A stretch of DNA of 64,000 nucleotides, from assembly GCA_013360285.1 (NCBI GenBank), contig JABWCM010000001.1:11328-75327 (forward strand), in the 5' to 3' direction. Under the pieces are notes generated by a model. The model searched no databases. It saw nothing but the letters and a program-made list of their open reading frames with translations, and was not told the origin of the DNA. Source of the DNA: Myxococcales bacterium. Lineage in GTDB: Bacteria; Myxococcota_A; UBA9042; JABWCM01. Of this stretch, positions 18,669 through 64,000 are shown in pieces (the first letter of the stretch is position 1; the number at the start of each line of letters is the position of its first letter). The translations under genes and the position numbers were made by a program.

Positions 18669-19046
18669 TGTTGTTGCTCCAAGTTTGTCTGGTCCATTGG
18701 GTCACTTCAGCCATTGAAGTCCCACCGGTGAAGTGATCAACTTGAGACGTATTTCTGCCAAGACTGCCCACACCGGTCGAAAATACGATTCCTGACACGA
18801 ACTTACCGAGCGCTCGTCGACGTGTCAATCCAAGAAGAACAATCCGGTTGAACGGAAACGGTTGACTGGACTCATGCCTGCGATCATAATCGGCACATCG
18901 AAATGAGAACTCTGCTGCCGGTAATCCGGAAGTAGGTTCATGCGACCAGTCGAATGGCGGTTTACTGATGTCGTGATGGCAAGAACACGTGTTTCGGACA
19001 CGGCGTTGTGGCATTCACGTTATGTCGCTTCAATGGGAAGGACCTA

Positions 19047-25000: not shown

Positions 25001-25720
25001 GGAGTCTGTGAGTTTGAGTCTGGACCTGTGTGCAGTGATGGTGACCCTTGTAATGGGACCGAAAGTTGTGATCCGTGGACCGGTGGTTGTGTTTCCGGTG
25101 ACGTACCCGATTGTGACGATACGAACGATTGTACTACCGACGGTTGCGATGCCGGCGGATGTTTCCACGCGCCTCTGCTGACATCAGAATGTTTGCCGGA
25201 CGGGGCGTTGTGTGGCGCAGCCGGCCTTTCTGGTGAAGTGTTCACCTGCGAATTCCATGTGGTACGCGAATCGGCTTTGGTGCCGCCGGCCGCGGCTTTG
25301 GAAAGTACATTCAGCATGGATAACTCGGCTTTCAAGGTCACCAACTTTGTGGACACGGTTTGTTTTGGTGCGGGTGGGCAACCGCCCTGTTCCGACGTCT
25401 CGGTACCGCCCAATCTGTTGTTTCCGACGGGGCATTCGGTTGTTATTGTGCCGGAAAATCTCGCAATGTGGGCCGATGGTGGTTCGATTTTCTTGTTCAA
25501 TCTGAATGATCCAACGGTAGTGCTGACCCAAGCGGAAGCCGCCGCTGGGGCATCCAACGAATCTTTGGTTCTGAAAGTGGAAATAACGTTACAAAAAGAC
25601 ATCAGTGAGACCGAGCCTGCCTATCTGTGGGTAGGAGACATCAGCGGAGCAACGGTCGACGTACAGGAATTGGAAGGCCAATTGTTACAAGGAATTGTGG
25701 TGTTATCCGAAAAACCATAG
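19047..25720 (+). CDS. Giant (2224 aa) secreted multidomain protein: signal peptide, dockerin-like Ca-binding module, lamin-tail domain (LTD), more than 30 Cys-rich CxxDxNxCTxDxC repeats in five blocks, each block followed by a repeated ~250-aa Ig-like module
   Basis: GGAAGGA RBS before ATG 19047 (six-frame ORF starts 18989). Signal peptide MANVHKRFAAFVSLWVGVFVFGVSSLAYA. LTD ITEIMVQP..EWFEIYNGG..ITGWTISN..GGSLFVPPAGYLVLG. Repeats of CDDGNACTTxDGCxNGVCVGGPxLxCDDANxCTDDSCD. Five paralogous modules each start C(A/L)(L/I)SG.xG..V.C.L.(L/V)(A/S)R(A/E). Confidence 0.85.
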
Positions 25721-41100: not shown

Positions 41101-41916
41101 GTTGGCAAGGGAATAACTCATGCCGGCTCCCAACGACGGCCATGTGCCGGAATGCTGCAACGTGGTGCCTCCCAGAATACGGATCGCGTTCCATTTGGAC
41201 GGGAGCGTGTTAAGCAAAAACGCTGTGCCGCCCGCCAAAGCTGCGACCGCGTTGGGATGGGTTTGAATATGCCAACTGCCGTTGAGACCTACGGTATTGC
41301 CCGTCCAAAGCGGAATGGAAGCGGCATCCAGGATGTCTACACCGATGGCCTGACTTTGGCGAAACGTTGAATTGGAGACCACGGGTGAGGCGTTCTGAAT
41401 CCGCAGGTTACGGTTGGTGCACAACTCTACAGTGGTGTTGGAAATGCCGACTCCCGGTGCACCGACAATGTCGATTCCGATTATGGCTTTTTTGATTTGT
41501 GTATGCGTAATCGACACATTGGTCGCTTTGGCGGTGAGAATCAGCCCTGTCCAACTTCCGGCCGTGCCGCTTTCGGCATCCAACAAAACCGGCGACGGTC
41601 CTTGCCCGGAAACAACAAGGGTTCCCGTGGTACCGGCACCCACCGTGATGGAAGCGTTGGGAGCAAATAGGACTTTGACGCCCGGTTGAATCGTCAATGA
41701 GTATCCTTGGTCGATAATCAGTTTGGTTTGCAGCACATATTCGGTATCAGCCTGAAACGGCGCCGACGGCCCCCAAATCGTATTTTGGCCAAGTGTTGTA
41801 TAATTGATGAGCGTAAGCGCAAACGCAGGAGCCGGAATGGCCGCGGACAACACAAAAAACAAAAGCAATTGGCGAATACGCCGACGTAACAAGGACGGAT
41901 TGGCAACTTTTGGCAT
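32107..41916 (-). CDS. Giant (about 3270 aa) surface/secreted multidomain protein: signal peptide, four tandem ~340-aa right-handed beta-helix modules, Ig-like/FN3-like domains, FG-GAP/VCBS-like repeats, TSP3-like Asp-rich Ca-binding repeats, C-terminal Cys-rich region and dockerin-like module
   Basis: Preferred start ATG at 41916 (MPKVANPSLLRRRIRQLLLFFVLSAAIPAPAFA). Beta-helix repeats (..GAVFTALADDQHGGD..IRYGG..QGQYFGTNGPLGAG..) recur four times. FG-GAP-like VDWNGDGNRDWMVG, HLDWDGDGTYDLVLG. TSP3-like DPDGDGL.N..E. C-terminal CLKAGNPKYANVDCDSSVTIVDVNLIISLALGAPLNPLIDANANKCPDSCEL. Confidence 0.85.
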   Translation of the reverse strand: MPKVANPSLLRRRIRQLLLFFVLSAAIPAPAFALTLINYTTLGQNTIWGPSAPFQADTEYVLQTKLIIDQGYSLTIQPGVKVLFAPNASITVGAGTTGTLVVSGQGPSPVLLDAESGTAGSWTGLILTAKATNVSITHTQIKKAIIGIDIVGAPGVGISNTTVELCTNRNLRIQNASPVVSNSTFRQSQAIGVDILDAASIPLWTGNTVGLNGSWHIQTHPNAVAALAGGTAFLLNTLPSKWNAIRILGGTTLQHSGTWPSLGAGMSYSLANPGIVIAAPAVPVLTIGPGATVKIDNQAGTGNNSGSYIQVGSASNADAQGGLLAYNTVFTSSLDDTIGGDTNGDGATTVVAGLWNSIVFLNYALDSSTLDGCTVRYGGAVQGNYFGSNGPLGSGSLYGGVTISAANITLSDTTIESNDQFGVRIHTSGDTHLTNCTVQNSTGAGVYEDGSGTVTLTDCVIQNNGGIGVFADPVLASGTSFQSGNHYPISIDPNSVAGLVNPANNNTFVAKKTVGHYNGIEVRAGVITNTGVWSAVPGFVYTIRGGDIVSIQGNPLPTLTIGEGAIVKFGPSVGTSGANGTYLVVGHASNAALAGRLIATGAVFTALADDQHGGDLLGDGPTTVANGSYGGIVFFDTAADDSSLTDCTIRYGGASQGQYFGTNGPLGAGLLYGNITITGASPTISNCEIENAHYAAIRIATSGSVKVENTTIHNNTVYGILDEGTGPLLMSDCSVTNTAGYGVFGNNATITGTTFAKNALYPVSLTAASIGGVAAPASGNVFVPNTSPVHHNALVARAGVISKNDVWPDISPLAYVIEPGNIVSVQGTIVPTLSIEDNAVVKFGPHASTSGANGTYLMIGTTGDTSKKGRLVADGAIFTALDDDAYAGDTLGDGQKTLNAGLYGGIILTNQAAATSSISNCLFRHGGVTQGQYFGTNGPLGAGNLYGCVTIDGPAMSITNSTFENCDQFGVRIHSGKPVLDGLSVYGGKGTAIYDSGPGPVTVIGSQLQNNAVYGLYANEAVVLGTLFSGNTSYPVSVMANSVSGIVSPLSGNTFVPRTIPADRNAIEIRGGTISASGLWPHIPSFSYYIQDGTIVWVQGNPMPTLAIGSGAVVKFGLAASTSGANGTYLALGHASNAALSGKLVATGAIFTVSTDDSIAGDTTGNGPTAPAAGSYGGILLMETADDSSTIEGCTLKYGGQTQGQYFGTNAPLGAGSVYGCVTLAGVNAKVTNSTFQGCGTAAIYVHTGAPTIQNCSLLDGQGHGVYDAGSGPLTVSNCTINGNKGHGVYANNASITGSFFLGNANYPISLTPNSIAGLTAPGANNTWIANSSPAHHNAIFVRGGTMNQSGIWGGLPAGFTYVLEPGTITTVAGNPMPTLEFSPGTIVKFGPAASTSGANGTYIVVGHDTNAALTGKVIANGALFTSLADDTVGGDTENNGPTTIPTGGNYGGFVLLNLASDTSSFTASTFRYGGQTQGQYFGTNGPLGTGLYGAVTLVNAAPTINGCVFSNGGAGIRVTAGNAVVTGCTLQNNTVGMLVQGGAPQIHESQLVGNTSFGVQNLGALVVDATQNWWGSSTGPTHTTNPGGTGDAVTNLVLFNPWKTISSDLIAPGPIGDLQVIGVGIGTVLLTWTAPGDNGFTGTADAYDIRYSTSPITQATFGTAIPVGDPPTPVAAGDTQTWMAGGLPGGNVLYFAMKTIDAGGNPSVISNNTDNGPPVLVSMTPLSSETGTEVALTVSGTHLFPDATLSFVGTSMTVAAPNTVTTGTSLTTTVDLEGVPPGQYSVVVTNADGKSGNLAAKFVVKPVSVPPLAITPEGPQLVVAGDNLQFGIIGNFVPVSWSSSEPAVGIVDNNGLFTAVSSTTATTTTVTATNAGGGKLTSGLITVPLDFDNDGLKDSWETANGLNPKNPLDALGDPDGDTLTTGDEYKNNTDPFVFNPTLRVDSLVGGANVYADGTWGYPGRFVGPVQALAAVDTVARPHFVTVWATGYGTARAVGMELAESPVEIEVSPNPHSTPVAYGEPTLADIGILTGLVGPISVDAVDWNLDGDMDLVLGDGTGGLWITHNVGDQANPVWETPVAIETTGQPILLGAPTDPILVDWNGDRLLDLAAQESSGRFRFYMNTGSPTQPQFDQAPTYVQVPGPGNTLIDLVRPVPARPVVVDWNGDGNRDWMVGRADGHFELFLNVGTDNAPVLSGPTLMTGSNNTAPLDAGQEATPWFSYDLDGKGSRDLISGNGTGQVLLWTAAISGLFSYNPIQVIETDSTGRTVPMHLDWDGDGTYDLVLGQEDGTIRILPGLATIDAPTGVQASGTPDYTVVAWLPNQERGLEGYKIYRATAEEGPYIPWSVVGLETTLFKDFQVELDTPYWYKVTAFSALGESAPSTVVMAKAEPIVAMAITPPGPHKVVTGGTLQLAATGGITPYFWIVTNDNAGWIDDDGLFTATGFPTVNQTSIVIVLDALNNAALSGVITVPWDYDQDGLGDHWELDYGFDPTIANGADDPDGDGLKNDKEYQLNTDPLHPDTDGDQLEDGYEVNVGLDPLVDDSLADPDGDGLSNLKEMELGTLPFVDDRKTDHDGDFMFTAWEALQGTDPFVFDASDDPDGDGLPNLVEHENTTPPTVDNLTLTDQDNDGMPDMYEQAVGLHPLIADFWTDPDLDLMPTGIEYLNGTSPYVPNSALLDGDGDGLPTRWEAAYGTDWNTADATADPDLDAIPNTLEFLSGLLPLTHTDLLTDTDQDGLPDRYERVMGRNPLVANAGNDPDQDDKPDLLEMTSGANPDVANTQYGDMDGDGMPNYWERAFAPDLNWQVDDALGNPDFDNIKSIVEWLDGTSPMQQANDTDNDDMADIWELAWGVDDPQGNPDNDIFVNLNEFLDGTNPLKVDPYTIVLTPTLPIVMVGETIQFAVGASVAPLVWATSDNAVATIDGQGKLTGVSLGWVEVTVTDQNAQVGTTLAFVYPKAGLENIPLVVAPIANQIVVAGDTVDFEAFGGEPPYSWSVLNPNWATVNTNGVFVAKGSQTQSVTTRVVVQDSNGASVQSGILTIPYDHDGDGMNDAWEVIFGLDPHQNDAVFDPDHDGSNNICEWLEKTNPHDPGQAVPCESNCCEGGLLPGCNDPGVQTCVCGFDPACCLLAWDDECADIASEACGGGCCGNGVCTLDESCATCSADCGPCQVCSLELVGDVNGDNFINVSDTQCGILTSLWVLDNQSGPPPGCLKAGNPKYANVDCDSSVTIVDVNLIISLALGAPLNPLIDANANKCPDSCEL

Positions 41917-42582
41917 AACAATTCCCGCGTTTGTGGATTGGTTGAAGAGGATCAGCAACAACAATAAAATAATGAGGTACTGTTGGGGCCGAGATTCACT
42001 GATCCACACGATATCAAACTCCTGCGTGGCGCCATAGTGGCAAGTCACCACGACGGCGATGGTTTGGGTTACAACGATCAAGTCAGTCGACACGGATACG
42101 ATGAGGAGGTGACATCGTGTGATCGTGTCGACAGGCGGCGTCGACATGGGCGGCATATGTCATCAACATATCCCTGATGCCACTGAAACACTGTCGAACG
42201 TCACTTAACAGCCTCGTGACACGGCTTGATGGCCTCGTTGAGACCGTGATCGAACCAAACGGAGGTCAGTAGAACACGACCGTAGGTGGCAACGTGGCCT
42301 GCGGTATACCACTTCATGACCAACCGTGGCTTCTTCAACGTGTCGACAAGTCGTTTTTGGGATGGAACGGAGGTGTATGAATGACCACGGTTTGGGTTTA
42401 AGTGACCTATCCCTGGTGTTCAAATGGTGTGGGTAGTGCGTCGATGCCGTGTCGCGAAGCAATGCACCCAGGTGCGGAGGTGGTTATTTCGCCTGCCACC
42501 GTCTTGGGAACGAAGCCACTCATCATCGCTTGCCCTGCGGCGACACGTCATGGCATACACTGCTGCGGTTTCGAAACGAAGG

Positions 42583-45500
42583 ATAAGTATGAAATTGAAA
42601 TCTTCTCCCAAAAGCCCTGCAGCGTCACAATCCATTTCTCCGCGGTCTGTTGACCCACGGGTCCATTATGTAGTGGCGGCGACTGCGGCGTTGATGCAGC
42701 GGCCGCTGATGGATGACGCGGTGTGTGGATGCGCTGCGGCGATTTTAAAACAAATTCCGGACATACAAAGCTCCGAATCCGCCATCAAAAGCGCCTGGCA
42801 GTCCGTTTATGACAACGGCTGGCTGTTTTTGGAAAACAAACAACCGCGGAAATTTCGTTTTGTGGACACCTGGCGAACCACAGCGGTATGGAATGCGGCT
42901 CGTGCGGGGCTGCTCAAAGCTGTGGGGGAAGAAATCATGGTGGGTCCAAACGCCTACAATCAAAAAAACATGGCCGCCCACCGTTTGTATGATCCCACAG
43001 GCGATATGGAGCGAAGGGGGCTTTATTACCTTTTTGTTGGGGAATTGAAGTTGCTTACCCAGGTCGAGGAATTATGGCTGTCGGGTTCGATTCGTCATCA
43101 GGAGGCCTATAAACAAAGTTTTGCCCATAGGCTGCTCGCCGACCCGTTTTCCGAACAGATTATTCGTTGGTTGCCGCCCCATATCGAAAGTTGGTTTGCC
43201 GATTGGTGGATTGCCTGGGTTCGTTCCGGGCATATTTTGCCGGACCGCATGAACGACTACTTCCGCAGCCGGGCGCAAGAAGAAACGGCGCCGGAGTCGG
43301 TACGGCTGTGTGCGGCATGGATCTCATTTTGGTTGGGCAAGTGGGCGGATGCCAAACGGTTTGCTGCGGGTCTTCCGACTCAAGACGCAAAAATGATGCC
43401 GGCAATGTGTTCCGCTGCCCGCGGCGACCTTGTGGCTATTGCCGAGTTTGAAGAACAAATCGCGTCGCTAAAAGCCTCAAACAAAAAAGCCGTGGTGCTG
43501 TTGCCCGAAATTGTGGCTTTATACGGGTTTACGTTGATTCGTCGTCGTCAACCCAATGATTTGGTCGTTGCCGAAAAATTGATTGCAGACGCGGCAAAAA
43601 AATGGAAGTCGTCGGTATTGGTTCAGTCACTCAAGGTGCTGTTGTCGGTATTGACGGGGGCGGGTTGGGACGAGCTACGGGGCACGCCGGGTGTTGGATC
43701 GTCGGCTCTTTCGCGTTTGGTGGCGCACTTGGTTGATTTTATTGTGACGGATGGGCGCAGCCAATACCAGGCTGGGGAAATCGACTTCGCGACCAAACAA
43801 GTCGATCAGCGTTATTTTCGATGGATTTACGCCAATCTGTTGGCGATAAAACTGCGACTGGAACCCAAAGCGGGTTCGTTGGCTGGGCAGGTGGACCGGT
43901 ATTATGCAGATTTGGAAATCGAGCAATGGTTATGTGATAGGGTCGAAAGTCGACCGATCTGGGAACAGCAGTTGGATACCCTGGAGGCGTTATTGACCAC
44001 CGCGGTCGCTGAGGAAACGAACCGACAGGCACGGATTGCGTGGGTAGCCCAGTACACCGCAGACGGTTGGGTAGTGGGTGCGGTGGAGCAGAAACGTTTG
44101 CTCAAAGGGGACGGGTGGACCAAAGGAACCCAGGTCAGTTTATCGCGGTTAAAAGGGACCACGTCTGCGCCCCCGGAATCGTTGACCGACCAAGACAAAA
44201 TGGTGTGTGCGTTGATCCAGCAGCCATATTGGGGTGGCCCGTGTTTTCTGGATAGTGCCGAGGTATTCAAAGCGTTGATCGGCCACCCCGCGGTGTTCGT
44301 CGGGTCTACCTCCCACGATCCCGTTGAAGTCACCCGGGGGGAAGTGTCTTTGTCCATCACAAAAAAGAAGTCCGGATATCAGGTTCAACTGATTCCTTCG
44401 TTTCCGCCTCACGAAACAACGTTGGTCGTAGCCGAGGACCGGCGGCTTATCTTGTATGAATTGGACGAGCGGAAAGCGCGGGCGGCCGCTTTTTTAGGTA
44501 AGGGTTTGGCGGTTCCCGCCGAAGCCGAAACACGGATCAAAAGTTTGCTTCCGCGGCTTGCGGAATTGGGTACGGTTCATTCCGCCGTAGACGGCACAGG
44601 GACCGACTACGCCACCGTGATTGGCGATCCCCGACCCCGAGTGTTGTTGGTTCCCAGGGGAGCGGGATTGGTGGTCGATTTACGTGTCCGGCCATTGGGG
44701 GAAGGTACACCCGCGTTTATTCCCGGCCATGGCGGCAAAACCGTGATGTTGGATGTTTCCGGGGAGCGGAAAATGTGCACCCGCACGCTGAAGCAGGAAG
44801 TCGAGTTGGCAAAAGCGGTTGTCGAAGCCTGTTCCACTTTGGTTTCGCCTGATCCCAACGACGATGGGTGGACGTGGGAACTTACCGATCCCGTTGCTGC
44901 TTTGGAATTGTTGTCGGAATTGGGTCAACTGAAAGAATCCGTTGTGTTGGAGTGGGCGGAAGGCAAAAAGTTGACGCCACCGACGGAGGTATCCACGCGG
45001 TCGTTACATATCAACATCCGTACGAAATCCGATTATTTTGCTGCGTCGGCAAACGTTGTACTCGATGACGGCGCTCTGTTGGACTTTGGTGCACTCATTG
45101 AAGCGTATCGAAACCGCGGTCAGGGGCGGTTTGTGGTCATGGACAACGACCGGGTGATCGCGTTGTCCGAACAGTTACGCCGGACTTTGGAGGATTTGGA
45201 TACGCTGTGGGAAAAAACGAGCGGTGGGTATCGGTTTTCTCCGGTCCAGGCTTTGGCGTTACAACCGCTTCTGGAACAAATCGACCATGTCGATGCGGAT
45301 TCGTCGTGGAAAAAGTGGCTTGACCGGTTGACGGAATCCGAGCAGTTGTCTCCAGAGGTCCCCCCCCCCTTTCGGGACATTTTGCGGTCCTATCAAATAG
45401 ATGGATTTCAATGGTTGGCGCGGTTGGCTTATGCGCAGATGGGTGCCTGTTTGGCTGACGACATGGGGCTGGGCAAAACCATTCAGGTGTTGGCTTTGTT

Positions 45501-46752
45501 AACTTACCGAATGAAGCTGGGACCGGCGTTGGTCGCTGCGCCGACGTCGGTATGTATGAACTGGACCGACGAAACCCGTAAGTTTGCGCCGGACCTTCGC
45601 CCGTTGCTTTTTGGGGCGGGGGATCGGGCTCAAATGATCCGGGATGCAGGGCCGGGTGATTTGATCGTGGTCTCTTATGGGCTTCTGTTAAGTGAGTCCG
45701 AATTGTTGGCAAGTCGGCGGTTTTCAACGATTGTCTTGGACGAAGCGCAGTGGATCAAAAACGCGGTTGCAAAACGAACGCAAGCGGCGATGGCGTTACA
45801 AGGCGATTTTCGTGTCATTACCACCGGCACGCCGGTTGAAAATCACCTGGGTGAATTGTGGAATCTGTTTCGGTTTATCAATCCGGGGCTGTTGGGGTCG
45901 TGGAAAAAATTCAGCACGCGGTTTGCGGTTCCCATCGAACGGAATAACGACAAAACAGCACGGCGAAAACTCAAAACCTTACTCGGCCCGTTTATCCTTC
46001 GGCGGACAAAAGGCCAGGTGTTACAGGAATTGCCGTCGCGAACCGAGATCACGATTCAGGTTGTACCGACTGCGGAAGAAACCGCGTTTTATGAAGCTTT
46101 ACGCATACGGGCGGTTTCGGCGTTGCAGAAAAATGAGGGTGCACCGCCGGGCCAGAAACAAATCCAAGTGCTTGCGGAGTTGATGCGGTTACGCCGGGCA
46201 TGTTGTAATCCAAAACTGGTTGTGCCGGATGTTTCCATTTCCAGCAGCAAGTTGCAGATATTTTTGGATCTCGTCACCGAATTGTTGGAAGGTTCCCACC
46301 GGGCGCTGGTATTTAGCCAATTTGTGGATCATTTGGCGTTGGCAAAGGAGGCGCTGGATAGCCAGGGGGTGAAATATCAATATTTGGATGGTTCTACTCC
46401 GGCTCCGGACCGGCGGACAAGGGTCGAGGCGTTTCAACGCGGCGAAGGGGATTTGTTTTTGATAAGCCTCAAAGCGGGTGGGGTAGGACTCAATCTAACC
46501 GGTGCGGACTATGTGATCCATTTGGACCCCTGGTGGAATCCCGCAGTGGAAGACCAGGCCAGCGATCGGGCGCATCGGTTGGGACAGACCCGCCCGGTCA
46601 CGATTTATCGATTGGTGATGCAGGATACGGTCGAAAGCCGCATCGTGGATCTTCACCGCAGAAAACGGGATTTGGCGACCAGTTTATTGGAGGGAACGGA
46701 AAATGTCGGAAAACTGCAATACGAAGATCTCATCGCCTTGCTTCGGGACTAA
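42583..46752 (+). CDS. SNF2-family DNA-dependent ATPase/helicase (RapA/HepA-like) with a long N-terminal region
   Basis: AAGGA RBS before ATG 42583 (six-frame ORF 42424). Helicase motifs LADDMGLGKTIQVLAL (I), VLDEAQWIKN (II), helicase-C region LISLKAGGVGLNLTGADYVIHLDPWWNPAVEDQASDRAHRLGQTRPV (IV-VI). Confidence 0.85.
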   Translation: MSMKLKSSPKSPAASQSISPRSVDPRVHYVVAATAALMQRPLMDDAVCGCAAAILKQIPDIQSSESAIKSAWQSVYDNGWLFLENKQPRKFRFVDTWRTTAVWNAARAGLLKAVGEEIMVGPNAYNQKNMAAHRLYDPTGDMERRGLYYLFVGELKLLTQVEELWLSGSIRHQEAYKQSFAHRLLADPFSEQIIRWLPPHIESWFADWWIAWVRSGHILPDRMNDYFRSRAQEETAPESVRLCAAWISFWLGKWADAKRFAAGLPTQDAKMMPAMCSAARGDLVAIAEFEEQIASLKASNKKAVVLLPEIVALYGFTLIRRRQPNDLVVAEKLIADAAKKWKSSVLVQSLKVLLSVLTGAGWDELRGTPGVGSSALSRLVAHLVDFIVTDGRSQYQAGEIDFATKQVDQRYFRWIYANLLAIKLRLEPKAGSLAGQVDRYYADLEIEQWLCDRVESRPIWEQQLDTLEALLTTAVAEETNRQARIAWVAQYTADGWVVGAVEQKRLLKGDGWTKGTQVSLSRLKGTTSAPPESLTDQDKMVCALIQQPYWGGPCFLDSAEVFKALIGHPAVFVGSTSHDPVEVTRGEVSLSITKKKSGYQVQLIPSFPPHETTLVVAEDRRLILYELDERKARAAAFLGKGLAVPAEAETRIKSLLPRLAELGTVHSAVDGTGTDYATVIGDPRPRVLLVPRGAGLVVDLRVRPLGEGTPAFIPGHGGKTVMLDVSGERKMCTRTLKQEVELAKAVVEACSTLVSPDPNDDGWTWELTDPVAALELLSELGQLKESVVLEWAEGKKLTPPTEVSTRSLHINIRTKSDYFAASANVVLDDGALLDFGALIEAYRNRGQGRFVVMDNDRVIALSEQLRRTLEDLDTLWEKTSGGYRFSPVQALALQPLLEQIDHVDADSSWKKWLDRLTESEQLSPEVPPPFRDILRSYQIDGFQWLARLAYAQMGACLADDMGLGKTIQVLALLTYRMKLGPALVAAPTSVCMNWTDETRKFAPDLRPLLFGAGDRAQMIRDAGPGDLIVVSYGLLLSESELLASRRFSTIVLDEAQWIKNAVAKRTQAAMALQGDFRVITTGTPVENHLGELWNLFRFINPGLLGSWKKFSTRFAVPIERNNDKTARRKLKTLLGPFILRRTKGQVLQELPSRTEITIQVVPTAEETAFYEALRIRAVSALQKNEGAPPGQKQIQVLAELMRLRRACCNPKLVVPDVSISSSKLQIFLDLVTELLEGSHRALVFSQFVDHLALAKEALDSQGVKYQYLDGSTPAPDRRTRVEAFQRGEGDLFLISLKAGGVGLNLTGADYVIHLDPWWNPAVEDQASDRAHRLGQTRPVTIYRLVMQDTVESRIVDLHRRKRDLATSLLEGTENVGKLQYEDLIALLRD

Positions 46753-56868: not shown

Positions 56869-58512
56869 ATGGGTGTGTTCTTGATGAAAGACCGGAAAGT
56901 TCGACATTTTGCCGCGGATTATTGTAACAACGATACCCGTGTTGAAGGCATATTTCCTCACCATTTTCTCGATGAACGTTCGATCGCACATCGGTTGCAG
57001 ATTGCGGCGACGAAAACAAGTTGTGCCGCCGTAGTGGCAACTTTGCGTGACGCCACACCAAATCCTTCGGAAACCACGCGGCGCCATTTGGAGTGGCTTG
57101 AGCAAGGAAATACGGTCGCCGTAGTGGCTGGGCAACAGGTCGGATTGTTTTTGGGACCCGCGTTTGCGTTTTATAAAGCTGCCGGCGTGATTCGCACAGC
57201 ACAGCAGATTCACAAACAGTTTGGAGTGCGTGCGGTGCCGATCTTCTGGCTTCAAAACGAAGATCACGACATCGAAGAAATCCGGTCGGCTACCATTCCG
57301 ACTCGCGACGGTCTGGTCGTAACGTCGTTGTCGGCCTCCACTCACCGTCCAAAAACGTCGATTCGTGACGAACTTCTGGGGCCGGAGATCACCAGTGCAC
57401 TCGGCACGGTTGCCGAAGCGTTGGCGGGTCGGGCAAAAGCCGCCGAAGTGATGGATTGGTTGGGGCGTCACTATCGTCCTGATGCCACCTACAGCGAAGC
57501 TTTTGCCGGCGCGCTGGGTGAATGGTTTGCCGACGAAGGGTTGTTGTTTGTGGATGCACGGCATCCCCAGTTTGCTGCGGCATCGCGGGATTTGATGAAA
57601 CAAGCTTTGGTACAAACCGAAACCATTTCCGCCGCGTTGGCCGAACAAAATGAACGATTGATGTCATTAGGTTACTCACCAACGGTTTATGTACGACCCC
57701 GGTCTCCGTTGCTGTTTGTGCATCCCGACGGTGCGAATGGGCCGAGGTATCGCCTCGAAGCCAACGACAATGACGCCTACACCGTGGTCGGTTATCCCGA
57801 ACATCGAACCATGACAACAGGGCAATTGGAGGCCTTAATCGATGCTGATCCACGTGCGGTATCGACTTCGGCTTTGTTGCGGCCAGTGATTCAAGATTCC
57901 TTGCTGCCGACGGCCGTGATGTTGGGGGGGCCATCGGAGTTGGCGTATCTGGCACAATGTGTTCCGCTGTATTCGTTGTTCCGCCAAACGTTGCCGGTGA
58001 TATGTCCACGGCCCAGTTTTTGTATTTTGCTGCCACGTACATGGTCCTTGATGCGTCGAATTGGGTTGGACTCCATCGATTTATCACTGCCGTGGGATCA
58101 ACTGGTCGCCCGACATTTGGCACAAACGGAGGGGGGGATTCCGACGCCCGACGTGGTTTCCGAACTGTTGACGACGTCGCTTGGAGACGTCATTCAACAA
58201 TTGCATTTGGCCAGTGTGCCGATGGGGTCGATGATGGAATCAGCGCTCAGAAAAACCGAGAATACGTTGAATTTTGCTGTGCGCCGCTTCGGTGAGCATT
58301 ATCGGAAAACCTATTTCATTCGCGACAAAGAAAGTGCCGAACGTTGGGCCAAATTAAAAGCGGAAATCCGCCCCGGCAACATTCCCCAGGAACGGGTGGT
58401 CAGCGTTGTGGCCTATGCTGCGGCGGTGGGGATGAACACGTTTAAACACAAAGTACTGGAGCATACGGTGCCGTTTACCTATGGAACGAAGGAGATTTTG
58501 TGGCAAACCTGA
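56869..58512 (+). CDS. bshC: Bacillithiol biosynthesis cysteine-adding enzyme BshC
   Basis: AVVAGQQVGLFLGPAFAFYKAAGVIRTAQQIHKQFGVRAVPIFWLQNEDHDIEEI parallels B. subtilis BshC (AVVGGQQAGLLTGPLYTIHKI..VPVIPIFWVAGEDHDLDEI). Also LRPVIQDSLLPTAVMLGGPSELAYL versus [25 protein letters not shown]. 547 aa. Confidence 0.85.
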   Translation: MGVFLMKDRKVRHFAADYCNNDTRVEGIFPHHFLDERSIAHRLQIAATKTSCAAVVATLRDATPNPSETTRRHLEWLEQGNTVAVVAGQQVGLFLGPAFAFYKAAGVIRTAQQIHKQFGVRAVPIFWLQNEDHDIEEIRSATIPTRDGLVVTSLSASTHRPKTSIRDELLGPEITSALGTVAEALAGRAKAAEVMDWLGRHYRPDATYSEAFAGALGEWFADEGLLFVDARHPQFAAASRDLMKQALVQTETISAALAEQNERLMSLGYSPTVYVRPRSPLLFVHPDGANGPRYRLEANDNDAYTVVGYPEHRTMTTGQLEALIDADPRAVSTSALLRPVIQDSLLPTAVMLGGPSELAYLAQCVPLYSLFRQTLPVICPRPSFCILLPRTWSLMRRIGLDSIDLSLPWDQLVARHLAQTEGGIPTPDVVSELLTTSLGDVIQQLHLASVPMGSMMESALRKTENTLNFAVRRFGEHYRKTYFIRDKESAERWAKLKAEIRPGNIPQERVVSVVAYAAAVGMNTFKHKVLEHTVPFTYGTKEILWQT

Positions 58513-59501: not shown

Positions 59502-60941
59502 ATGGACACAAAACGACGAATGTTGGCTGTGGTTATCATTGGGTTGTTGCTGTTTTCATCGATGGCCGCGGCAGTACCTATGGAAGTGGGATATGTTGCG
59601 GAATTGCGGTCTCCAAATGGATTGCCGTTTAGCGGCACCATGGACGTGACGGTGGCATTGTATCCCGATGCGATGTCGGGGGTGCCCAATTGGGGACCTC
59701 ATACCTTTGATGACCTGGATATCGAAGGCGGAAGGCTGGAGTTTGTGTTGGGGCAGGGGGGATCGGCTCCAGTGGACTCAATGGACCTATCGACAACAGA
59801 GTTGTGGCTTGAAATTCAAGTCGGTGATGATGTGCTGACACCGCGGCAGAAAATCGTAGCCGTGCCATATACGGTGTTGGCCTCCGATGCCGAAAGATTA
59901 GGTGGGTTGGACGCAGCGGAATATTTGATTCCATCTGATCTGCCGGGTTTGGGGGTCTTGTTTTCGACATCGGTGGCGCAGGTGGCATTTAGCGGAGCCT
60001 ACGGGGATTTGACCGGAAAACCTGCGTTGGCAACGGTTGCAACCAGCGGGAATTATAATGATCTGTCCAACAAACCGGCGTTGGCAACGGTTGCAACCAG
60101 CGGGAATTATAATGATCTGTCCAACAAACCGGCGTTGGCAGCCGTTGCAACCAGTGGGAATTATAACGATCTGTCCAACAAGCCGGACTTGAGCCAATAT
60201 CTGACGACATCGGGTTCGCCGGCAGCAACTTCGATTGCCACGACCACGCTGAACCTACCGAAAAGCGGCAGTACGGTAAGTTTTGGTTATTGCGGCGGTT
60301 TGCCCACGGGCTGGTCGGGATCGACAGGCGGCTCCACCGATGGTTTCTGCATGAAAAACGGCACACCTGGCGGAGACGCCGAGACGTTGTTTTTGATGAG
60401 TTACGACAATGGCGATACCAACGAGAGTGTATACATCGGCGGCGGGGCGATGTGTTGTGGCCCCAGTTGGCAAGGATTTCGTATATTTGGCAACGGCACC
60501 GCGTTGTTGTCGGGGAGTTTGTCGACAAATCAGGGCGCGTTGTTCAGCGATATGGCGGAAAACGTGCCGGTGGTGGAAAAAGTCGAACCAGGTGATGTGG
60601 TCCGAATCGAACGGGTCGATCAAAAAAACTTCAACAATTCAAGATTTTCCAAAACAACCAGGGCTTACGACAAAACAGCGTTTGGGGTGGTTTCCGACAC
60701 GTTTGGATTGGCCATGGGACCCACACAAAATCGGTCGCCGGTGGCGTTGGCGGGTATCGTCAAAGTGAAAGTAGATCCACGCCAGGGCAAAATTGAACCC
60801 GGAGACCTGCTGACAAGCTCACCTACTCCAGGCCATGCGATGAAGGCAACACAAGACATACCGGGAACAGTGTTTGGAAAAGCAATGGAAGGTGCCGAAG
60901 GGAATCCGCAAGTGATTTTGATGCTCGTGATGCATCGATAA
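59502..60941 (+). CDS. Secreted fibrous-protein family member D: conserved N-domain followed by three tandem phage-tail-fibre-type repeats (SGNYNDLSNKPALATVAT) and a distinct C-terminal domain
   Basis: Signal peptide MLAVVIIGLLLFSSMAAA. N-domain VPMEVGYVAELRSPNGLPFSGTM..PRQKIVAVPYT. DNA-level 54-bp tandem repeat x3 at about 60040-60200 encoding YNDLSNKP-type repeats. Confidence 0.8.
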   Translation: MDTKRRMLAVVIIGLLLFSSMAAAVPMEVGYVAELRSPNGLPFSGTMDVTVALYPDAMSGVPNWGPHTFDDLDIEGGRLEFVLGQGGSAPVDSMDLSTTELWLEIQVGDDVLTPRQKIVAVPYTVLASDAERLGGLDAAEYLIPSDLPGLGVLFSTSVAQVAFSGAYGDLTGKPALATVATSGNYNDLSNKPALATVATSGNYNDLSNKPALAAVATSGNYNDLSNKPDLSQYLTTSGSPAATSIATTTLNLPKSGSTVSFGYCGGLPTGWSGSTGGSTDGFCMKNGTPGGDAETLFLMSYDNGDTNESVYIGGGAMCCGPSWQGFRIFGNGTALLSGSLSTNQGALFSDMAENVPVVEKVEPGDVVRIERVDQKNFNNSRFSKTTRAYDKTAFGVVSDTFGLAMGPTQNRSPVALAGIVKVKVDPRQGKIEPGDLLTSSPTPGHAMKATQDIPGTVFGKAMEGAEGNPQVILMLVMHR

Positions 60942-60944
60942 AGA

Positions 60945-61580
60945 CTAATCCGGGCTGAGGATGGCACGAATCAGTTTGTCATCACCGGGGCGGATTGTAA
61001 GCAATGCCGCCTCGGTTTTGTCGATCAACTCCTGGACTTTGGGAATCATCTGGCGGCCCTTCAAGATATGTAACTCCACCGCACTGGCGGCAGCACTTCG
61101 TGCTTTGCCGGCATCTCTTAATTCATTGTTGGTGGCTTCAAAAGCGGCAATGGAAACGACGAGTCCGGGATGGTTCAATACCTTGGCTCGTTCGATCAAC
61201 GAATCGCCGAACTTGGTTGCTTCGTCGGGGCCCAACTTTCGTGCATCGGCTGCCTTCGTGGTTCCAAACAAAGACCGGTAAGGATCTTGGTCGGCCTTTT
61301 TGCCGGAAACGTGATAGGATTCGGACGAAACGACACCGACGTCTTCGTCCCAGTATACATCGGTGATTTTCACACCGGCTCGTTCCTGATTGAGGGTTCG
61401 GCGTAACTGACGTCGTTCATCCAGATAGGTCGTAAACTCTATTTCCATTTGTTCCCAGGGTGGAATCAGGGGAAGGATATCGGGAATCCGTTTGGAGGCT
61501 TTGATGAGATTTGCGGTGACATTGCCGCAATATTCGTCCAGTGCATCAACGCCTAAATTGGCTGGAAGTGTATAACCCAT
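60945..61580 (-). CDS. Hypothetical protein (211 aa), unknown function
   Basis: Uninterrupted ORF with balanced composition and charged helical segments. Convergent with the 59502 gene (3-nt spacing). Confidence 0.45.
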   Translation of the reverse strand: MGYTLPANLGVDALDEYCGNVTANLIKASKRIPDILPLIPPWEQMEIEFTTYLDERRQLRRTLNQERAGVKITDVYWDEDVGVVSSESYHVSGKKADQDPYRSLFGTTKAADARKLGPDEATKFGDSLIERAKVLNHPGLVVSIAAFEATNNELRDAGKARSAAASAVELHILKGRQMIPKVQELIDKTEAALLTIRPGDDKLIRAILSPD

Positions 61581-61734
61581 GTGATGTCTCCTTATTGTGT
61601 ATCATCGCTGTAACTGATGATGATGCCACGTTACCATAGTTAATCGGGCGACCAAACCTTTTTCATGTGCCCGTCAGAAAAAAAGAGAAAGCGGTTTCTT
61701 TACCATGCCTACAAAATGGCAACTTCGACCGAGA

Positions 61735-61952
61735 AATCGAACGGCAGCCTATGCCCTAAGCTTTCCGACAAGTCGGAACGGTTAGGGCAGCCTATGCCCT
61801 AAGCCTTAAGACAAGTCGGAACGGTTAGGGCAGCCTATGCCCTAAGCTTTCCGACAAGTCGGAACGGTTAGGGCAGCCTATGCCCTAAGCTTTACGGCAA
61901 GCCGGAACGGTTAGGGCAGCCTATGCCCTAAGCTTTCCGACAAGTCGAAACC
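61735..61952. repeat. Tandem array of five 43-bp direct repeats (plus one truncated copy); each contains an 8-bp-stem hairpin TTAGGGCA-gccta-TGCCCTAA
   Basis: Read directly: cggaacggttagggcagcctatgccctaagctttccgacaagt at 61774, 61817, 61860, 61903 with point variants, partial copies at both ends. No spacers between units. Confidence 0.85.
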
Positions 61953-62061
61953 CCAACAACACTTTTTTGAGTGGTATGGCGCAAAGATGGAAAGAGTTAT
62001 ATACTTGGAATTGTATTTGGGGAAATAAAACCAGACTAAAAAGATTCTCTGTGGGAAAATA

Positions 62062-62814
62062 ATGCAATATACAAGTCTGTACTGTCTAAAATCGGGAATT
62101 GTGGACATCATGTTGAAATATCCACAATGGGGAGTCCGAAAAGTGTGGGCACTGCTAAGGCAGCCGGCATACGGAATGCGGGTGAGCACCAGAAGGGTAT
62201 GGAAGTTGATGCGGGATCTGAGACAGGCTTTTCGTAATGATAACTCGGAGTCAAACCAAGCATCGAAAAGAGTAGTGGTCGACGATTCGAACCAACGGTG
62301 GGCGACCGACTTTACGAAAGTGTGGACCAAAGAAGATGGCCAGGTAACGATTGTCCCAACCATCGATTGTGGATGCAGAACATTGATGGCCGTGGAAGTA
62401 GTCAAAAGCCAAACGTCCGAATCGATTTTGGCGTCGGTAGATGCCGCATTGAAAAAAGAATTTGGCGATACAACCAACTTAAGACAGGCACTGGAACTGA
62501 GAACCGACCAAGGATCGCAGTATGTAAGCCAAACCTGTAAAGATTGGGCAGAAAAATGGAACCTGAACCATACGTTGGCAAAAAAAGGCACACCAACCGA
62601 AAATGCTGTAGTGGAACGTGTGATAAGAACCATGAAAGAAGAATGTATCTGGCCCAGAGACTGGAACAATGTCGAGGAGCTAAGGCAAGCACTCAACAAA
62701 TGGCATCAGGAATACAATGAAATACGTCCACATCAGGCACTTAATTGGAGCACCCCGAAACAACGCCGGGAAGAAAACCTGGCCAGAGCGCAAGGAGGGC
62801 ACAAAAAGATTTAA
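62062..62814 (+). mobile_element. IS3-family OrfB-type DDE transposase/integrase catalytic core (rve) without an orfA; probable IS remnant
   Basis: HTH_21-like N-terminus (..GVRKVWALLRQPAYGMRVSTRRVWKLMRDL), DDE residues in WATDFT, RTDQGSQY, TPTENAVVERV. Only ~110 bp upstream, too short for an OrfA. No terminal inverted repeats identified. Confidence 0.7.
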
Positions 62815-62860
62815 CTAACCGCCAAAGAGTGCTATCAGAGCAGAAAAGAGGAAACACTAC

Positions 62861-63810
62861 AGGCATGCGTTTCCTCATCGGCTAAAGTAGGCGTTAATCA
62901 ACTGCGACGTCCCCGGCAGTTGCGGTTGGCATGCGTTTCCTCATCGGCTAAAGTCCCAGCGCCACCGGAGTGCCTACCATGCAGTTGCGGTTGGCATGCG
63001 TTTCCTCATCGGCTAAAGTTCAAGGCCAACTGCACGGCAGCCTGGAAGAGTTGCGGTTGGCATGCGTTTCCTCATCGGCTAAAGTTAGACTAGGCGACAT
63101 TCGATCCGAACACTCGTTGCGGTTGGCATGCGTTTCCTCATCGGCTAAAGTTGCAACGACGCTGGATGCGACACCGGATTTGTTGCGGTTGGCATGCGTT
63201 TCCTCATCGGCTAAAGTGGATCAGCATTCGGGTTGCCGCGGCCATCAGTTGCGGTTGGCATGCGTTTCCTCATCGGCTAAAGTTGATGTGCGGCGTTCCC
63301 GCCACCCAAATCAGTTGCGGTTGGCATGCGTTTCCTCATCGGCTAAAGTACACCATTCAGGCGTGAACTCGATCCCCTTGTTGCGGTTGGCATGCGTTTC
63401 CTCATCGGCTAAAGTCGTGTTACGGTGGTGCGGCCTACGCCCTGCGTTGCGGTTGGCATGCGTTTCCTCATCGGCTAAAGTCTTGCCCCTGGCCGTCCGT
63501 CGGCTCTTCGGTTGCGGTTGGCATGCGTTTCCTCATCGGCTAAAGTTTTCGTGGCCGTCGAATGGTCACGGGCCGTGTTGCGGTTGGCATGCGTTTCCTC
63601 ATCGGCTAAAGTATGACCACGCTCCGTAGGTGGCAGACCGAGGTTGCGGTTGGCATGCGTTTCCTCATCGGCTAAAGTACACTATCGCTTTTCGGCTTCA
63701 ACCGCGCGGTTGCGGTTGGCATGCGTTTCCTCATCGGCTAAAGTATGGAAGCACGGAACCCCAGTGTTCCAGCAGTTGCGGTTGGCATGCGTTTCCTCAT
63801 CGGCTAAAGT
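62861..63810. CRISPR. CRISPR array: 14 full 36-bp repeats GTTGCGGTTGGCATGCGTTTCCTCATCGGCTAAAGT plus one 5'-truncated/degenerate repeat at the IS-proximal end; 14 unique 29-30-bp spacers; no cas genes in the window
   Basis: Exact repeat copies at about 66-bp period from 62919 to 63810. Spacers are unique and about 60% GC. The degenerate copy at 62861-62888 suggests the trailer end faces the transposase. AT-rich leader-like sequence lies at 63861-64000. Confidence 0.92.
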
Positions 63811-63814
63811 CCAT

Positions 63815-63860
63815 GTCCCAGAACTTGTGAGAATAACACGGGTTCTGGGACATTTTTTTT
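63815..63860 (+). terminator. Hairpin (GTCCCAGAAC .. GTTCTGGGAC, 10-bp stem) followed by a T8 run immediately after the last CRISPR repeat; candidate intrinsic terminator or leader-proximal structure
   Basis: Inverted repeat and T-tract read directly at 63815-63860. Confidence 0.4.
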
Positions 63861-64000
63861 ACAAAAACCGACCATTTTCATATCACAACAATACCAATTG
63901 CTCCGGTTTTTTCGGGCTTTCTTTCTTCTTTTTGCCGTTGAACATCAACGACATTTCATATTGTTTGTCGGTGAAAAAAAGAATATGGACCTTTCCTCGA

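What the first reader, a model, noticed from the sequence alone, without database searches (positions are those of the whole stretch)
62062..64000. Orphan CRISPR array (36-bp repeats, 30-bp spacers) abutting a solo IS3-type OrfB; cas genes absent from 60 kb on one side
The repeat/spacer geometry of 36/30 and the weak internal palindrome of the repeat fit type II (tracrRNA-dependent) arrays best, but also some type III and V systems. The IS-proximal repeat is truncated and degenerate, consistent with the trailer end. The far side (63861-64000) is AT-rich and leader-like, preceded by a hairpin plus T8. Either the cas operon lies just beyond the window's right edge, or the IS insertion deleted or separated it, leaving an orphan array. 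Spacers are about 60% GC, matching high-GC mobile elements of the host clade. The six-frame ORF 62970..63629 across the repeats is an artefact.
Basis: partly seen in the sequence, partly recalled or inferred. Interest (0 to 1): 0.6.

Follow-up and report, generated by a model that had tools for sequence, protein, structure and literature searches.

The report
Type II-C Cas9 array, not orphan
The repeat array is real, but it is the ordinary CRISPR array of a complete Cas9 (type II-C) immune system whose genes begin at the very edge of the window, so it is not orphan; the one oddity is that the transposase remnant beside it is old and conserved.

Summary
There are 14 identical 36-nt repeats, a 27-nt truncated copy and 14 spacers of 29-30 nt at 62862-63810, directly after a solo IS3-type orfB (62062-62814).

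The "orphan" reading is wrong. Window 63883-63999 on the minus strand already encodes the last 38 residues of Cas2. A public contig with flanks 100% identical to the window continues into cas2-cas1-cas9 (1028 aa, RuvC+HNH), followed by a divergently oriented tracrRNA with a roughly 30-bp anti-repeat. GenBank already annotates these genes, as NUN12038-12041 in a "Myxococcales bacterium" MAG.

The layout matches Neisseria-style type II-C. The array and tracrRNA are read on the plus strand and converge on the cas operon. Every full repeat carries a promoter-like TTGGCA-17-TAAAGT. A hairpin plus T-run closes the array just before cas2.

No protospacers were found, so there is no PAM.

One unexpected point concerns the truncated orfB. 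The same orfB and the same IS-end/truncated-repeat junction occur in a second species (Cas9 79% identical). There orfB shows purifying selection (pN 0.25 against pS 0.75). It is therefore an old, retained remnant, not a recent hit that removed the cas genes.

Overall this is an ordinary new member of a known kind.

The parts
62062..62814 (+). Solo orfB of an IS3-family element (250 aa; GenBank calls it from the internal Met as 234 aa). It has no orfA and no left inverted repeat.
   Evidence: Pfam rve, rve_3 and HTH_21. NCBIfam IS3 transposase, profile positions 135-368 of 369 only. No orfA remnant and no left IR. A second species carries it at the same position with pN 0.25 against pS 0.75. 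NUN12038.1.
62815..62861 (+). 3' non-coding end of the IS remnant, ending ...GGAAACACTACA.
   Evidence: The terminal 12 nt are identical in all three lineages, while the rest of this segment has diverged between species. The terminal CA is typical of IS3-family ends (general knowledge).
62862..62888 (+). Truncated first repeat: the 3' 27 nt of 36, identical to the consensus. It keeps the -10-like TAAAGT but has lost the -35-like TTGGCA.
   Evidence: The same junction occurs in species 2 (L015). Only 8 nt of the repeat are kept in strain L014.
62889..63810 (+). CRISPR array body: 14 spacers (29-30 nt) each followed by a full 36-nt repeat. The crRNA sense is the plus strand.
   Evidence: for the array. 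The strand follows from the tracrRNA strand and from the terminators.
62926..62954 (+). First of 14 identical repeat-embedded promoter-like sites, TTGGCA-17 nt-TAAAGT. The -10-like hexamer is the last 6 nt of the repeat.
   Evidence: 14 of the 16 promoter-like sites in 61500-64000 are these, against 2.5 expected in shuffles. This is a consensus match only; there are no RNA data.
63811..63860 (+). Intrinsic-terminator-like hairpin (17 bp) plus T-run, directly after the last repeat. It is the probable end of array transcripts and occupies most of the putative leader (63811-63882).
   Evidence: A compensatory change in species 2 keeps the stem (CCCAGAAC..GTTCTGGG becomes CCCAAAAC..GTTTTGGG). Similar hairpins lie between cas2 and the array in L008, L009, L010 and L022.
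63883..64000 (-). 3' end of cas2: the last 38 codons plus the stop codon. The gene runs on beyond the window, followed by cas1, cas9 and the tracrRNA.
   Evidence: The translation RGKVHILFFTDKQYEMSLMFNGKKKKESPKKPEQLVLL* equals the C-terminus of the 113-aa Cas2 of L001. The L001 flanks match the window with 0 mismatches over 1036 + 191 nt.

Best explanation
The array is the CRISPR array of a complete type II-C CRISPR-Cas9 locus that the window edge cuts through. Read along the window's plus strand, the order is: IS3 orfB remnant; truncated repeat; 14 spacer-repeat units; terminator hairpin; then, on the minus strand, cas2, cas1 and cas9; then a tracrRNA gene on the plus strand, diverging from cas9.

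Proposed working:
- crRNAs are made on the plus strand, most likely from a promoter inside each repeat and possibly also by read-through from orfB. Transcription stops at the hairpin before cas2.
- The 5' part of each repeat pairs with the tracrRNA anti-repeat. Cas9 (RuvC+HNH) binds this dual RNA and cuts matching DNA next to a PAM that is not yet known.
- Cas1-Cas2 add new spacers, by analogy at the cas2-proximal end.
- The orfB remnant is an old fixture at the trailer end. It did not remove the cas genes.

Shown here: the array, the cas genes, the anti-repeat complementarity, the terminators, and conservation across lineages. Inferred: the transcription start sites, the end at which spacers are acquired, and activity.
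For: Continuation of the locus: a look-up of the window's OrfB returns a 15-kb contig (L001) with flanks identical to the window. It continues into cas2, cas1 and a 1028-aa cas9.

The window itself encodes the Cas2 C-terminus.

Cas proteins: Cas9 matches TIGR01865 at 592.9 bits over its full length, with HNH_4 and RuvC_III. Cas1 matches the type II model cas1_NMENI at 242 bits. Cas2 matches TIGR01573. No csn2 or cas4 appears among the called genes.

tracrRNA: L001 5508-5613 (+) carries GTTTTAGCCGATGAGGAAACGCACGCCATTGG, which pairs with the repeat at -49 kcal/mol. A CCGTT/AACGG hairpin follows, then an 11-bp terminator plus T8. The anti-repeat and first hairpin are identical in the second species, and the terminator stem there carries two compensatory double changes.

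Relatives: loci with Cas9 at 40-44% identity (L008-L013, L022) share the cas9-cas1-cas2-array order, the 36/30 geometry, the repeat orientation and related repeats (30/36 and 28/36 identical). In the loci where the region upstream of cas9 was read (L008, L009, L010), they also share an anti-repeat there.

Selection: cas genes between the two species give dN/dS 0.03-0.08 (dS saturated). The IS-proximal spacer differs between lineages, so the system has been maintained.

Public annotation: GenBank already names the genes Cas2, type II Cas1 and Cas9.

Precedent: N. meningitidis and C. jejuni type II-C arrays are transcribed opposite to the cas operon from promoters inside the repeats (PMC5965381, PMC3737331, PMC12477760).
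Against: There are no RNA data, so the repeat promoters, the tracrRNA ends and the plus-strand sense of the array rest on sequence signals alone. The repeat -10 lacks the TG extension that is present in two relatives, L012 and L013, and that I recall from memory for Neisseria. No clear promoter was found for the tracrRNA. No protospacer was found for any spacer. All 14 were tried against GenBank phages and plasmids. Eight were tried as exact 24-mers against IMG/VR. All 14 were also compared with the window and with the 15-kb contig L007. Activity and PAM are therefore unsupported. The continuation beyond 64000 comes from a separate short-read assembly in which the array is collapsed to one spacer. 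The GenBank accessions are consecutive, which agrees with this continuation.
Confidence: 0.9

Rival explanations
1. It is a truly orphan array: an IS3 insertion deleted the cas operon or moved it away, and the repeats persist without effector genes.
For: No Cas family is listed among the hits for 35 ORFs in the 62 kb to the left. A transposase fragment abuts a truncated repeat.
Against: The cas2 3' end lies inside the window, 72 nt from the last repeat. Intact cas2-cas1-cas9 and a tracrRNA follow. The IS remnant is at the cas-distal end. The same arrangement is stable in a second species.
Confidence: 0.01
2. The locus is type II-C but decaying: the IS event disabled the array, and the system is no longer used.
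For: The first repeat is truncated and has lost its -35-like hexamer. No spacer has a known target. Between close strains, orfB shows about 5.5 non-synonymous and 0.5 synonymous differences.
Against: All 14 full repeats are identical. Cas9, Cas1 and Cas2 are full-length and match their family models. The RuvC-I, HNH and RuvC-III motifs are legible in the Cas9 translation (residues assigned by eye). The cas genes show strong purifying selection between species. The repeat and anti-repeat are identical across species, while the IS-proximal spacer differs in each of the three lineages. This indicates turnover after the IS event.
Confidence: 0.07
3. The array is transcribed on the minus strand, in the same direction as cas9-cas1-cas2, from a leader promoter between cas2 and the array, as in type II-A systems.
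For: Chylinski et al. (PMC3737331) took co-directional transcription as the default assumption. The cas2-proximal side is where a leader is expected.
Against: The tracrRNA candidate has its terminator on the plus strand. Its anti-repeat can therefore pair only with plus-strand repeat RNA. The hairpin plus T-run after the array is on the plus strand and has no T-run on the minus strand. All repeat-embedded promoter-like sites are on the plus strand. In L008, L010 and L022 the hairpin between cas2 and the array likewise has its T-rich tail on the array-sense strand.
Confidence: 0.04

Closest known systems
Neisseria meningitidis type II-C CRISPR-Cas9 (the Nme1Cas9 locus)
   Same: It has the minimal cas9-cas1-cas2 set and 36-nt repeats with 30-nt spacers. 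The array and tracrRNA are read opposite to the cas operon. A promoter element sits at the 3' end of every repeat, so crRNAs start inside spacers (PMC5965381, PMC3737331, PMC12477760). Compact Cas9s of roughly 1,050-1,150 aa are the best matches among solved structures.
   Different: The Cas9 is only distantly related: E-values of 1e-75 to 1e-53 to the best solved chains, and 44% identity to its nearest homologue listed in the database search outside its own clade. The repeat shares about 16/36 positions with the Nme repeat, which I recalled from memory. The repeat promoter-like site here is a -35/-10 pair (TTGGCA-17-TAAAGT), not an extended -10. The PAM is unknown. An IS3 orfB remnant caps the cas-distal end.
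Type II-C loci of Alphaproteobacteria and metagenomes with Cas9 40-44% identical (L008, L009, L010, L012, L022, and L013 = Pelagibius sp. CAU 1746)
   Same: The gene order is the same, with the array downstream of cas2 in the same orientation and 36/30 geometry. The repeats are related: L022 30/36, L008 28/36, L013 22/36 identical. In L008, L009 and L010 an anti-repeat lies upstream of cas9, followed by a shared TAACAAG motif (CCGTTAACAAG in L008). A hairpin lies between cas2 and the array in L008, L009, L010 and L022.
   Different: None of them has an rve/orfB gene at the array end. L012 and L013 have a TGnTAnnnT extended -10 at the repeat end, where this repeat has GGCTAAAGT.
IS3-family insertion sequences
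   Same: orfB has the rve DDE core. The motifs WATDFT, TDQGSQY and NAVVERVIRTMKEE are kept, and the 3' end terminates in CA.
   Different: There is no orfA, no frameshift site and no left inverted repeat. The ORF is 40-50 aa shorter than typical OrfB homologues of 290-300 aa. It sits at a fixed chromosomal position in two species and has evolved like a host gene.

Membership tests
Type II-C CRISPR-Cas | The signature gene cas9, with RuvC and HNH nuclease domains, lies next to the array. | tested here: met
   TIGR01865 at 592.9 bits (cut-off 100) over residues 4-1015; HNH_4 and RuvC_III. The gene lies about 1.3 kb from the last repeat on contig L001, whose flanks are identical to the window.
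Type II-C CRISPR-Cas | cas1 and cas2 are the only adaptation genes; there is no csn2 (II-A) and no cas4 (II-B). | tested here: met
   Cas1 matches the type II model cas1_NMENI at 242 bits, and Cas2 matches TIGR01573. The other called genes on the 15-kb contig carry unrelated Pfam families.
Type II-C CRISPR-Cas | A tracrRNA gene with an anti-repeat complementary to the repeat, followed by hairpins and a terminator. | tested here: met
   L001 5508-5613 (+): duplex with the repeat at -49 kcal/mol, then a hairpin and an 11-bp terminator plus T8. It is conserved in species 2, with compensatory changes in the terminator stem. This is in silico only. No Rfam family matches.
Type II-C CRISPR-Cas | RNA-guided, PAM-dependent DNA cleavage. 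| not testable with these tools
   No protospacer was found for any spacer, so not even a PAM can be inferred.
Neisseria/Campylobacter-style array expression (array antisense to cas, repeat-embedded promoters) | The crRNA sense strand is opposite to the cas operon. | tested here: met
   This is inferred from the strand of the tracrRNA terminator and anti-repeat, and from the plus-strand terminator after the array. There are no RNA data.
Neisseria/Campylobacter-style array expression (array antisense to cas, repeat-embedded promoters) | A functional promoter at the 3' end of each repeat, with 5'-triphosphate crRNA starts inside the spacers. | tested here: inconclusive
   Every full repeat has TTGGCA-17-TAAAGT (9 of 12 consensus positions). 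This is a consensus match only. The host's promoter preferences are unknown and no dRNA-seq is available.
Orphan CRISPR array | No cas genes in the neighbourhood of the array. | tested here: not met
   The cas2 stop codon lies 72 nt from the last repeat, and cas1 and cas9 follow.
Intact IS3-family insertion sequence | A DDE (rve) transposase. | tested here: met
   rve, rve_3 and HTH_21. NF033516 at 166.9 bits against a cut-off of 160.
Intact IS3-family insertion sequence | An orfA with a programmed -1 frameshift into orfB. | tested here: not met
   Profile positions 1-134 are absent. The three frames upstream of orfB hold no orfA-like ORF; the space is taken by a 43-bp tandem repeat.
Intact IS3-family insertion sequence | Two terminal inverted repeats (TG...CA) flanked by a target duplication. 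| tested here: not met
   The right end terminates in CA at 62861. No matching left inverted repeat exists within 61400-62900.

The most novel reading that the evidence does not exclude
The 5'-truncated IS3 orfB may be more than debris. It could be a domesticated DDE protein kept by selection at the cas-distal end of this type II-C array, together with its conserved IS terminus and the truncated repeat. It might then have a role tied to the array, for example driving or regulating transcription into the array, or acting on the array end. The evidence shows only long-term retention with purifying selection in two species. It shows no link to CRISPR function.
Probability: 0.08. Interest if true: 0.55.

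Novelty: new member of a known kind. Interest (0 to 1): 0.2.

Why it matters
The main value is as a correction. An apparently orphan array is an artefact of where the window ends, and the locus is a standard type II-C Cas9 system that GenBank already annotates.

Two smaller points may interest specialists:
- This compact Cas9 (1028 aa) is only about 44% identical to its nearest homologue listed in the database search outside its own small clade. A full guide-RNA pair can be predicted from sequence, so it is a ready candidate for PAM and activity profiling.
- A transposase remnant and its junction with a truncated repeat have been kept, with the ORF under purifying selection, since before two species diverged. 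That is an unusual fate for IS debris next to a CRISPR array.

Tried and rejected
- Searching one genome per species (GTDB representatives) with the Cas9 protein and with 27 nt of the repeat found nothing. The source species is therefore not in that set, and I could not name the organism beyond the GenBank label 'Myxococcales bacterium'.
- The exact repeat is absent from the JGI metagenome contigs. A degenerate repeat pattern found only more distant type II-C arrays.
- Spacer targets: none in the window or the 15-kb contig L007 at up to 8 mismatches, apart from one 8-mismatch chance hit. None in GenBank phages or plasmids for all 14 spacers. None in IMG/VR for exact 24-mers of spacers 5 and 8-14. 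No PAM could be derived.
- Rfam: no family at gathering threshold in the window. Only sub-threshold hits to terminator hairpins at relaxed thresholds.
- I wanted to test which array end varies between samples by looking up Cas2-bearing contigs.
- Zhang et al. 2013 (PMC3694421), the primary source for Neisseria array polarity, is not held. The statement that spacers are acquired at the cas-proximal end rests on PMC3737331, PMC12477760 and my recollection.
- Considered and rejected: type III, V or VI assignment (Cas9, a type II Cas1 and a tracrRNA are present); a CRISPR-associated transposon (only a lone IS3-type orfB, no TnsB/TnsC/TniQ-like genes); and the ORF 62970-63629 as a gene (it is a repeat-period artefact).
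Full report
**1. The observation**

The sequence at 62862-63810 is a textbook CRISPR array. An exhaustive scan finds 14 exact copies of GTTGCGGTTGGCATGCGTTTCCTCATCGGCTAAAGT (36 nt). They are spaced 65-66 nt apart and separate 14 unique spacers, 12 of 30 nt and 2 of 29 nt. The repeat finder and Tandem Repeats Finder report the same array.

A fifteenth copy at 62862-62888 keeps only the last 27 nt of the repeat, and these match the consensus perfectly. The missing 9 nt are replaced by ...GGAAACACTACA, the end of the non-coding tail that follows orfB (62062-62814). So this copy is cut short, not degenerate.

OrfB is an IS3-family transposase fragment. It has the rve, rve_3 and HTH_21 domains. Its NCBIfam match (NF033516, 166.9 bits) covers only profile positions 135-368 of 369.

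No orfA remnant and no left inverted repeat exist upstream. The space there is taken by a 43-bp tandem repeat.

The spacers average 61% GC, against 54% for the window.

**2. The array is not orphan**

I looked up contigs that encode exactly the window's OrfB. This returned a 15-kb contig (L001, shown in full as L007) whose flanks match the window with no mismatch over 1036 + 191 nt. Its array is collapsed to one spacer, as short-read assemblies often do.

The contig runs on past window position 64000 into cas2 (113 aa), cas1 (303 aa) and cas9 (1028 aa). All three are on the minus strand.

The window itself already holds the end of cas2. Positions 63883-63999 (minus strand) translate to RGKVHILFFTDKQYEMSLMFNGKKKKESPKKPEQLVLL*, which is the C-terminus of that Cas2. 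Only 72 nt (63811-63882) separate the last repeat from the cas2 stop codon.

The Cas proteins match their family models:
- Cas9 matches TIGR01865 over its full length (592.9 bits) with HNH_4 and RuvC_III.
- Cas1 matches the type II model cas1_NMENI (242 bits).
- Cas2 matches TIGR01573.

No csn2 or cas4 is present among the called genes. This gene set defines subtype II-C.

GenBank already annotates the run as consecutive proteins of a 'Myxococcales bacterium' MAG, on a contig of 101,778 bp:
- NUN12037, hypothetical protein;
- NUN12038, IS3 transposase;
- NUN12039, Cas2;
- NUN12040, type II Cas1;
- NUN12041, Cas9.

To the left of the array, 35 ORFs were scanned against PADLOC and Pfam. No Cas family appears among the listed hits.

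**3. The tracrRNA and the direction of the array**

About 66 nt upstream of the cas9 start codon, on the plus strand, L001 5508-5613 reads GTTTTAGCCGATGAGGAAACGCACGCCATTGG. A CCGTT-AACAAG-AACGG hairpin follows, then an 11-bp GC-rich hairpin with T8.

The first segment pairs with the repeat over about 30 bp with one A-C mismatch (-49 kcal/mol). The repeat alone is essentially unstructured (-3.2 kcal/mol), as expected for type II.

This RNA ends at a plus-strand terminator, so the crRNA it pairs with must also be plus-strand. The array is therefore read from the orfB side towards cas2, converging on the cas operon.

Three further signals agree with this direction:
- A 17-bp hairpin plus T-run starts directly after the last repeat on the plus strand.
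- Each of the 14 full repeats carries TTGGCA-17 nt-TAAAGT on the plus strand, with the -10-like hexamer as the last six bases of the repeat. These make up 14 of the 16 promoter-like sites in 61500-64000, against 2.5 expected in shuffles.
- orfB is co-directional and has no terminator before the array, so read-through is possible.

This is the arrangement described for N. meningitidis and C. jejuni type II-C. There the array is transcribed opposite to the cas operon from promoters embedded in the repeats (PMC5965381, PMC3737331, PMC12477760).

The start sites here are inferred, not shown. The truncated first repeat has lost the -35-like hexamer.

**4. Relatives**

In the database search the nearest listed Cas9 outside this clade is only 44% identical. 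Even so, loci with such Cas9s share the anatomy. These are L008, L009, L010, L012, L013 (Pelagibius sp. CAU 1746) and L022.

Shared features:
- the order cas9-cas1-cas2-array;
- 36-nt repeats and 30-nt spacers;
- the same repeat orientation relative to cas2;
- related repeats (L022 30/36, L008 28/36, L013 22/36 identical);
- in L008, L009 and L010, where that region was read, an anti-repeat upstream of cas9 followed by a TAACAAG motif;
- in L008, L009, L010 and L022, a hairpin between the array and cas2, which in L008, L010 and L022 has a T-rich tail on the array-sense strand.

In L010, L013 and L022 the mutated terminal repeat sits at the cas-distal end. Chylinski et al. remark that degenerate-repeat polarity is opposite to the transcription direction in Neisseria and Campylobacter (PMC3737331). 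Together these place the trailer at the orfB side and the acquisition end next to cas2.

I could not test polarity directly.

**5. The orfB remnant is old**

Searching OrfB homologues returned two other short versions. Their contigs are the same locus in other lineages.

L014 is a close strain (Cas9 96% identical, Cas1 and Cas2 100%, OrfB 98%). L015 and L016 are a second species. Identities to this genome there are:
- Cas9 79%;
- Cas1 88%;
- Cas2 85%;
- BshC 59%;
- SSF transporter 86%;
- OrfB 62%.

The second species keeps the synteny SSF, PIG-L, BshC, PIG-L, 470-aa protein, orfB, array, cas2, cas1, cas9.

It also has the same 5'-truncated orfB (253 aa). It has the same terminal GGAAACACTACA joined to the same 27-nt truncated repeat, and an identical 36-nt repeat. 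The adjacent spacer is different. The truncation therefore predates the split of the two species.

Between the species, orfB has pN 0.249 against pS 0.746, with synonymous sites saturated. A Fisher test on differing against unchanged sites gives p = 7e-31. These values resemble those of the neighbouring host genes BshC (0.26/0.67) and PIG-L (0.25/0.68). The three DDE motifs are kept.

An unconstrained 250-codon frame would not stay open at this divergence: (61/64)^250 is about 6e-6. OrfB has therefore been under purifying selection. Nothing links that selection to CRISPR function, and the more distant type II-C relatives lack any orfB at the array end.

In strain L014 the truncated repeat is only 8 nt long and the adjacent spacer differs again. 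Between the two close strains, orfB shows about 5.5 non-synonymous and 0.5 synonymous differences, too few to interpret.

**6. What could not be shown**

No spacer has a detectable target. The window and the 15-kb contig L007 were searched at up to 8 mismatches. All 14 spacers were searched against GenBank phages and plasmids. Exact 24-mers of eight spacers were searched against IMG/VR. The PAM and the prey therefore remain unknown.

The repeat and this Cas9 are absent from the species-representative genomes and from the JGI metagenome contigs. Rfam has no family for the repeat or the tracrRNA.

**7. Verdict**

'Orphan' is refuted, and 'cas operon just beyond the edge' is confirmed.

The thing itself is an ordinary, apparently intact type II-C CRISPR-Cas9 locus with Neisseria-like organisation. 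It is a new and fairly divergent member of a known kind, and a public record already annotates it automatically. The only unexpected element is the long-conserved, selected orfB remnant at the trailer end, which I rate as a curiosity.

Interest is 0.2. Confidence that this is the array of a complete type II-C locus is 0.9. Confidence in the specific transcription and acquisition polarity is about 0.6.

Noticed in passing
window 62062-62888; L015 10001-10837; L016 217-978; L014 175-982: The solo orfB and its junction with the truncated repeat are conserved in a second species (OrfB 62% identical, Cas9 79%, same synteny). OrfB there shows pN 0.25 against pS 0.75 and keeps its DDE motifs, so it is a selected remnant rather than fresh IS debris. 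Strain L014 keeps only 8 nt of the truncated repeat.
   Followed up: yes
window 61743-61951: There is a 43-bp tandem repeat of 4.9 copies just upstream of orfB. Each unit folds as a hairpin with arms of about 18 bp (TGCCCTAAGCTTTCCGAC/GTCGGAACGGTTAGGGCA). It occurs nowhere else in the window. It is present in strain L014 and in contigs L001-L004 and L006, and absent from the second species (L015). Its function is unknown.
   Followed up: partly
window 60945-61580 (-): A 211-aa ORF lies between the conserved 479-aa gene and the tandem repeat. It has no Pfam, PADLOC or PHROG match, and GenBank calls it a hypothetical protein (NUN12037.1). It is absent from the syntenic region of the second species, so it is a lineage-specific insertion beside the CRISPR locus.
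   Followed up: partly
window 59502-60941 (+), repeats at 60018-60186: A 479-aa protein contains three in-frame 54-bp repeats (motif ...SGNYNDLSNKPALA...). It has no Pfam hit and only weak matches to PHROG families of unknown function. It is conserved (80% identical) at the same position in the second species.
   Followed up: partly
window 42424-46752 (+): A 1442-aa SNF2-family helicase matches PADLOC DpdE models strongly (E 5e-188) and also ZorD and DrmD models. The three adjacent ORFs that were scanned show no defence-family match. It may be a lone SNF2 helicase rather than part of a Dpd, Zorya or DISARM system.
   Followed up: partly
window 193-2328 (+), 18989-25720 (+), 32107-42156 (-): The window encodes an AAA ATPase with weak IetA-like PADLOC hits and two giant ORFs of 2243 and 3349 aa. 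Across the window's ORFs, Pfam reports Dicty_CTDC, beta-helix, collagen, LTD and TSP3 repeats; I did not establish which ORFs carry them. A bacillithiol gene, bshC (56869-58512), is also present in this MAG labelled 'Myxococcales'.
   Followed up: no
L001 5705-5890 (+), beyond the window: A 61-aa ORF lies just downstream of the predicted tracrRNA terminator. It has no family match and may not be a gene.
   Followed up: partly
The large protein search with Cas9 listed nothing between 100% and 44% identity. Yet a 79%-identical Cas9 exists on contigs L015 and L016. The apparent isolation of this Cas9 in that search is therefore partly a gap in the database or index.
   Followed up: no
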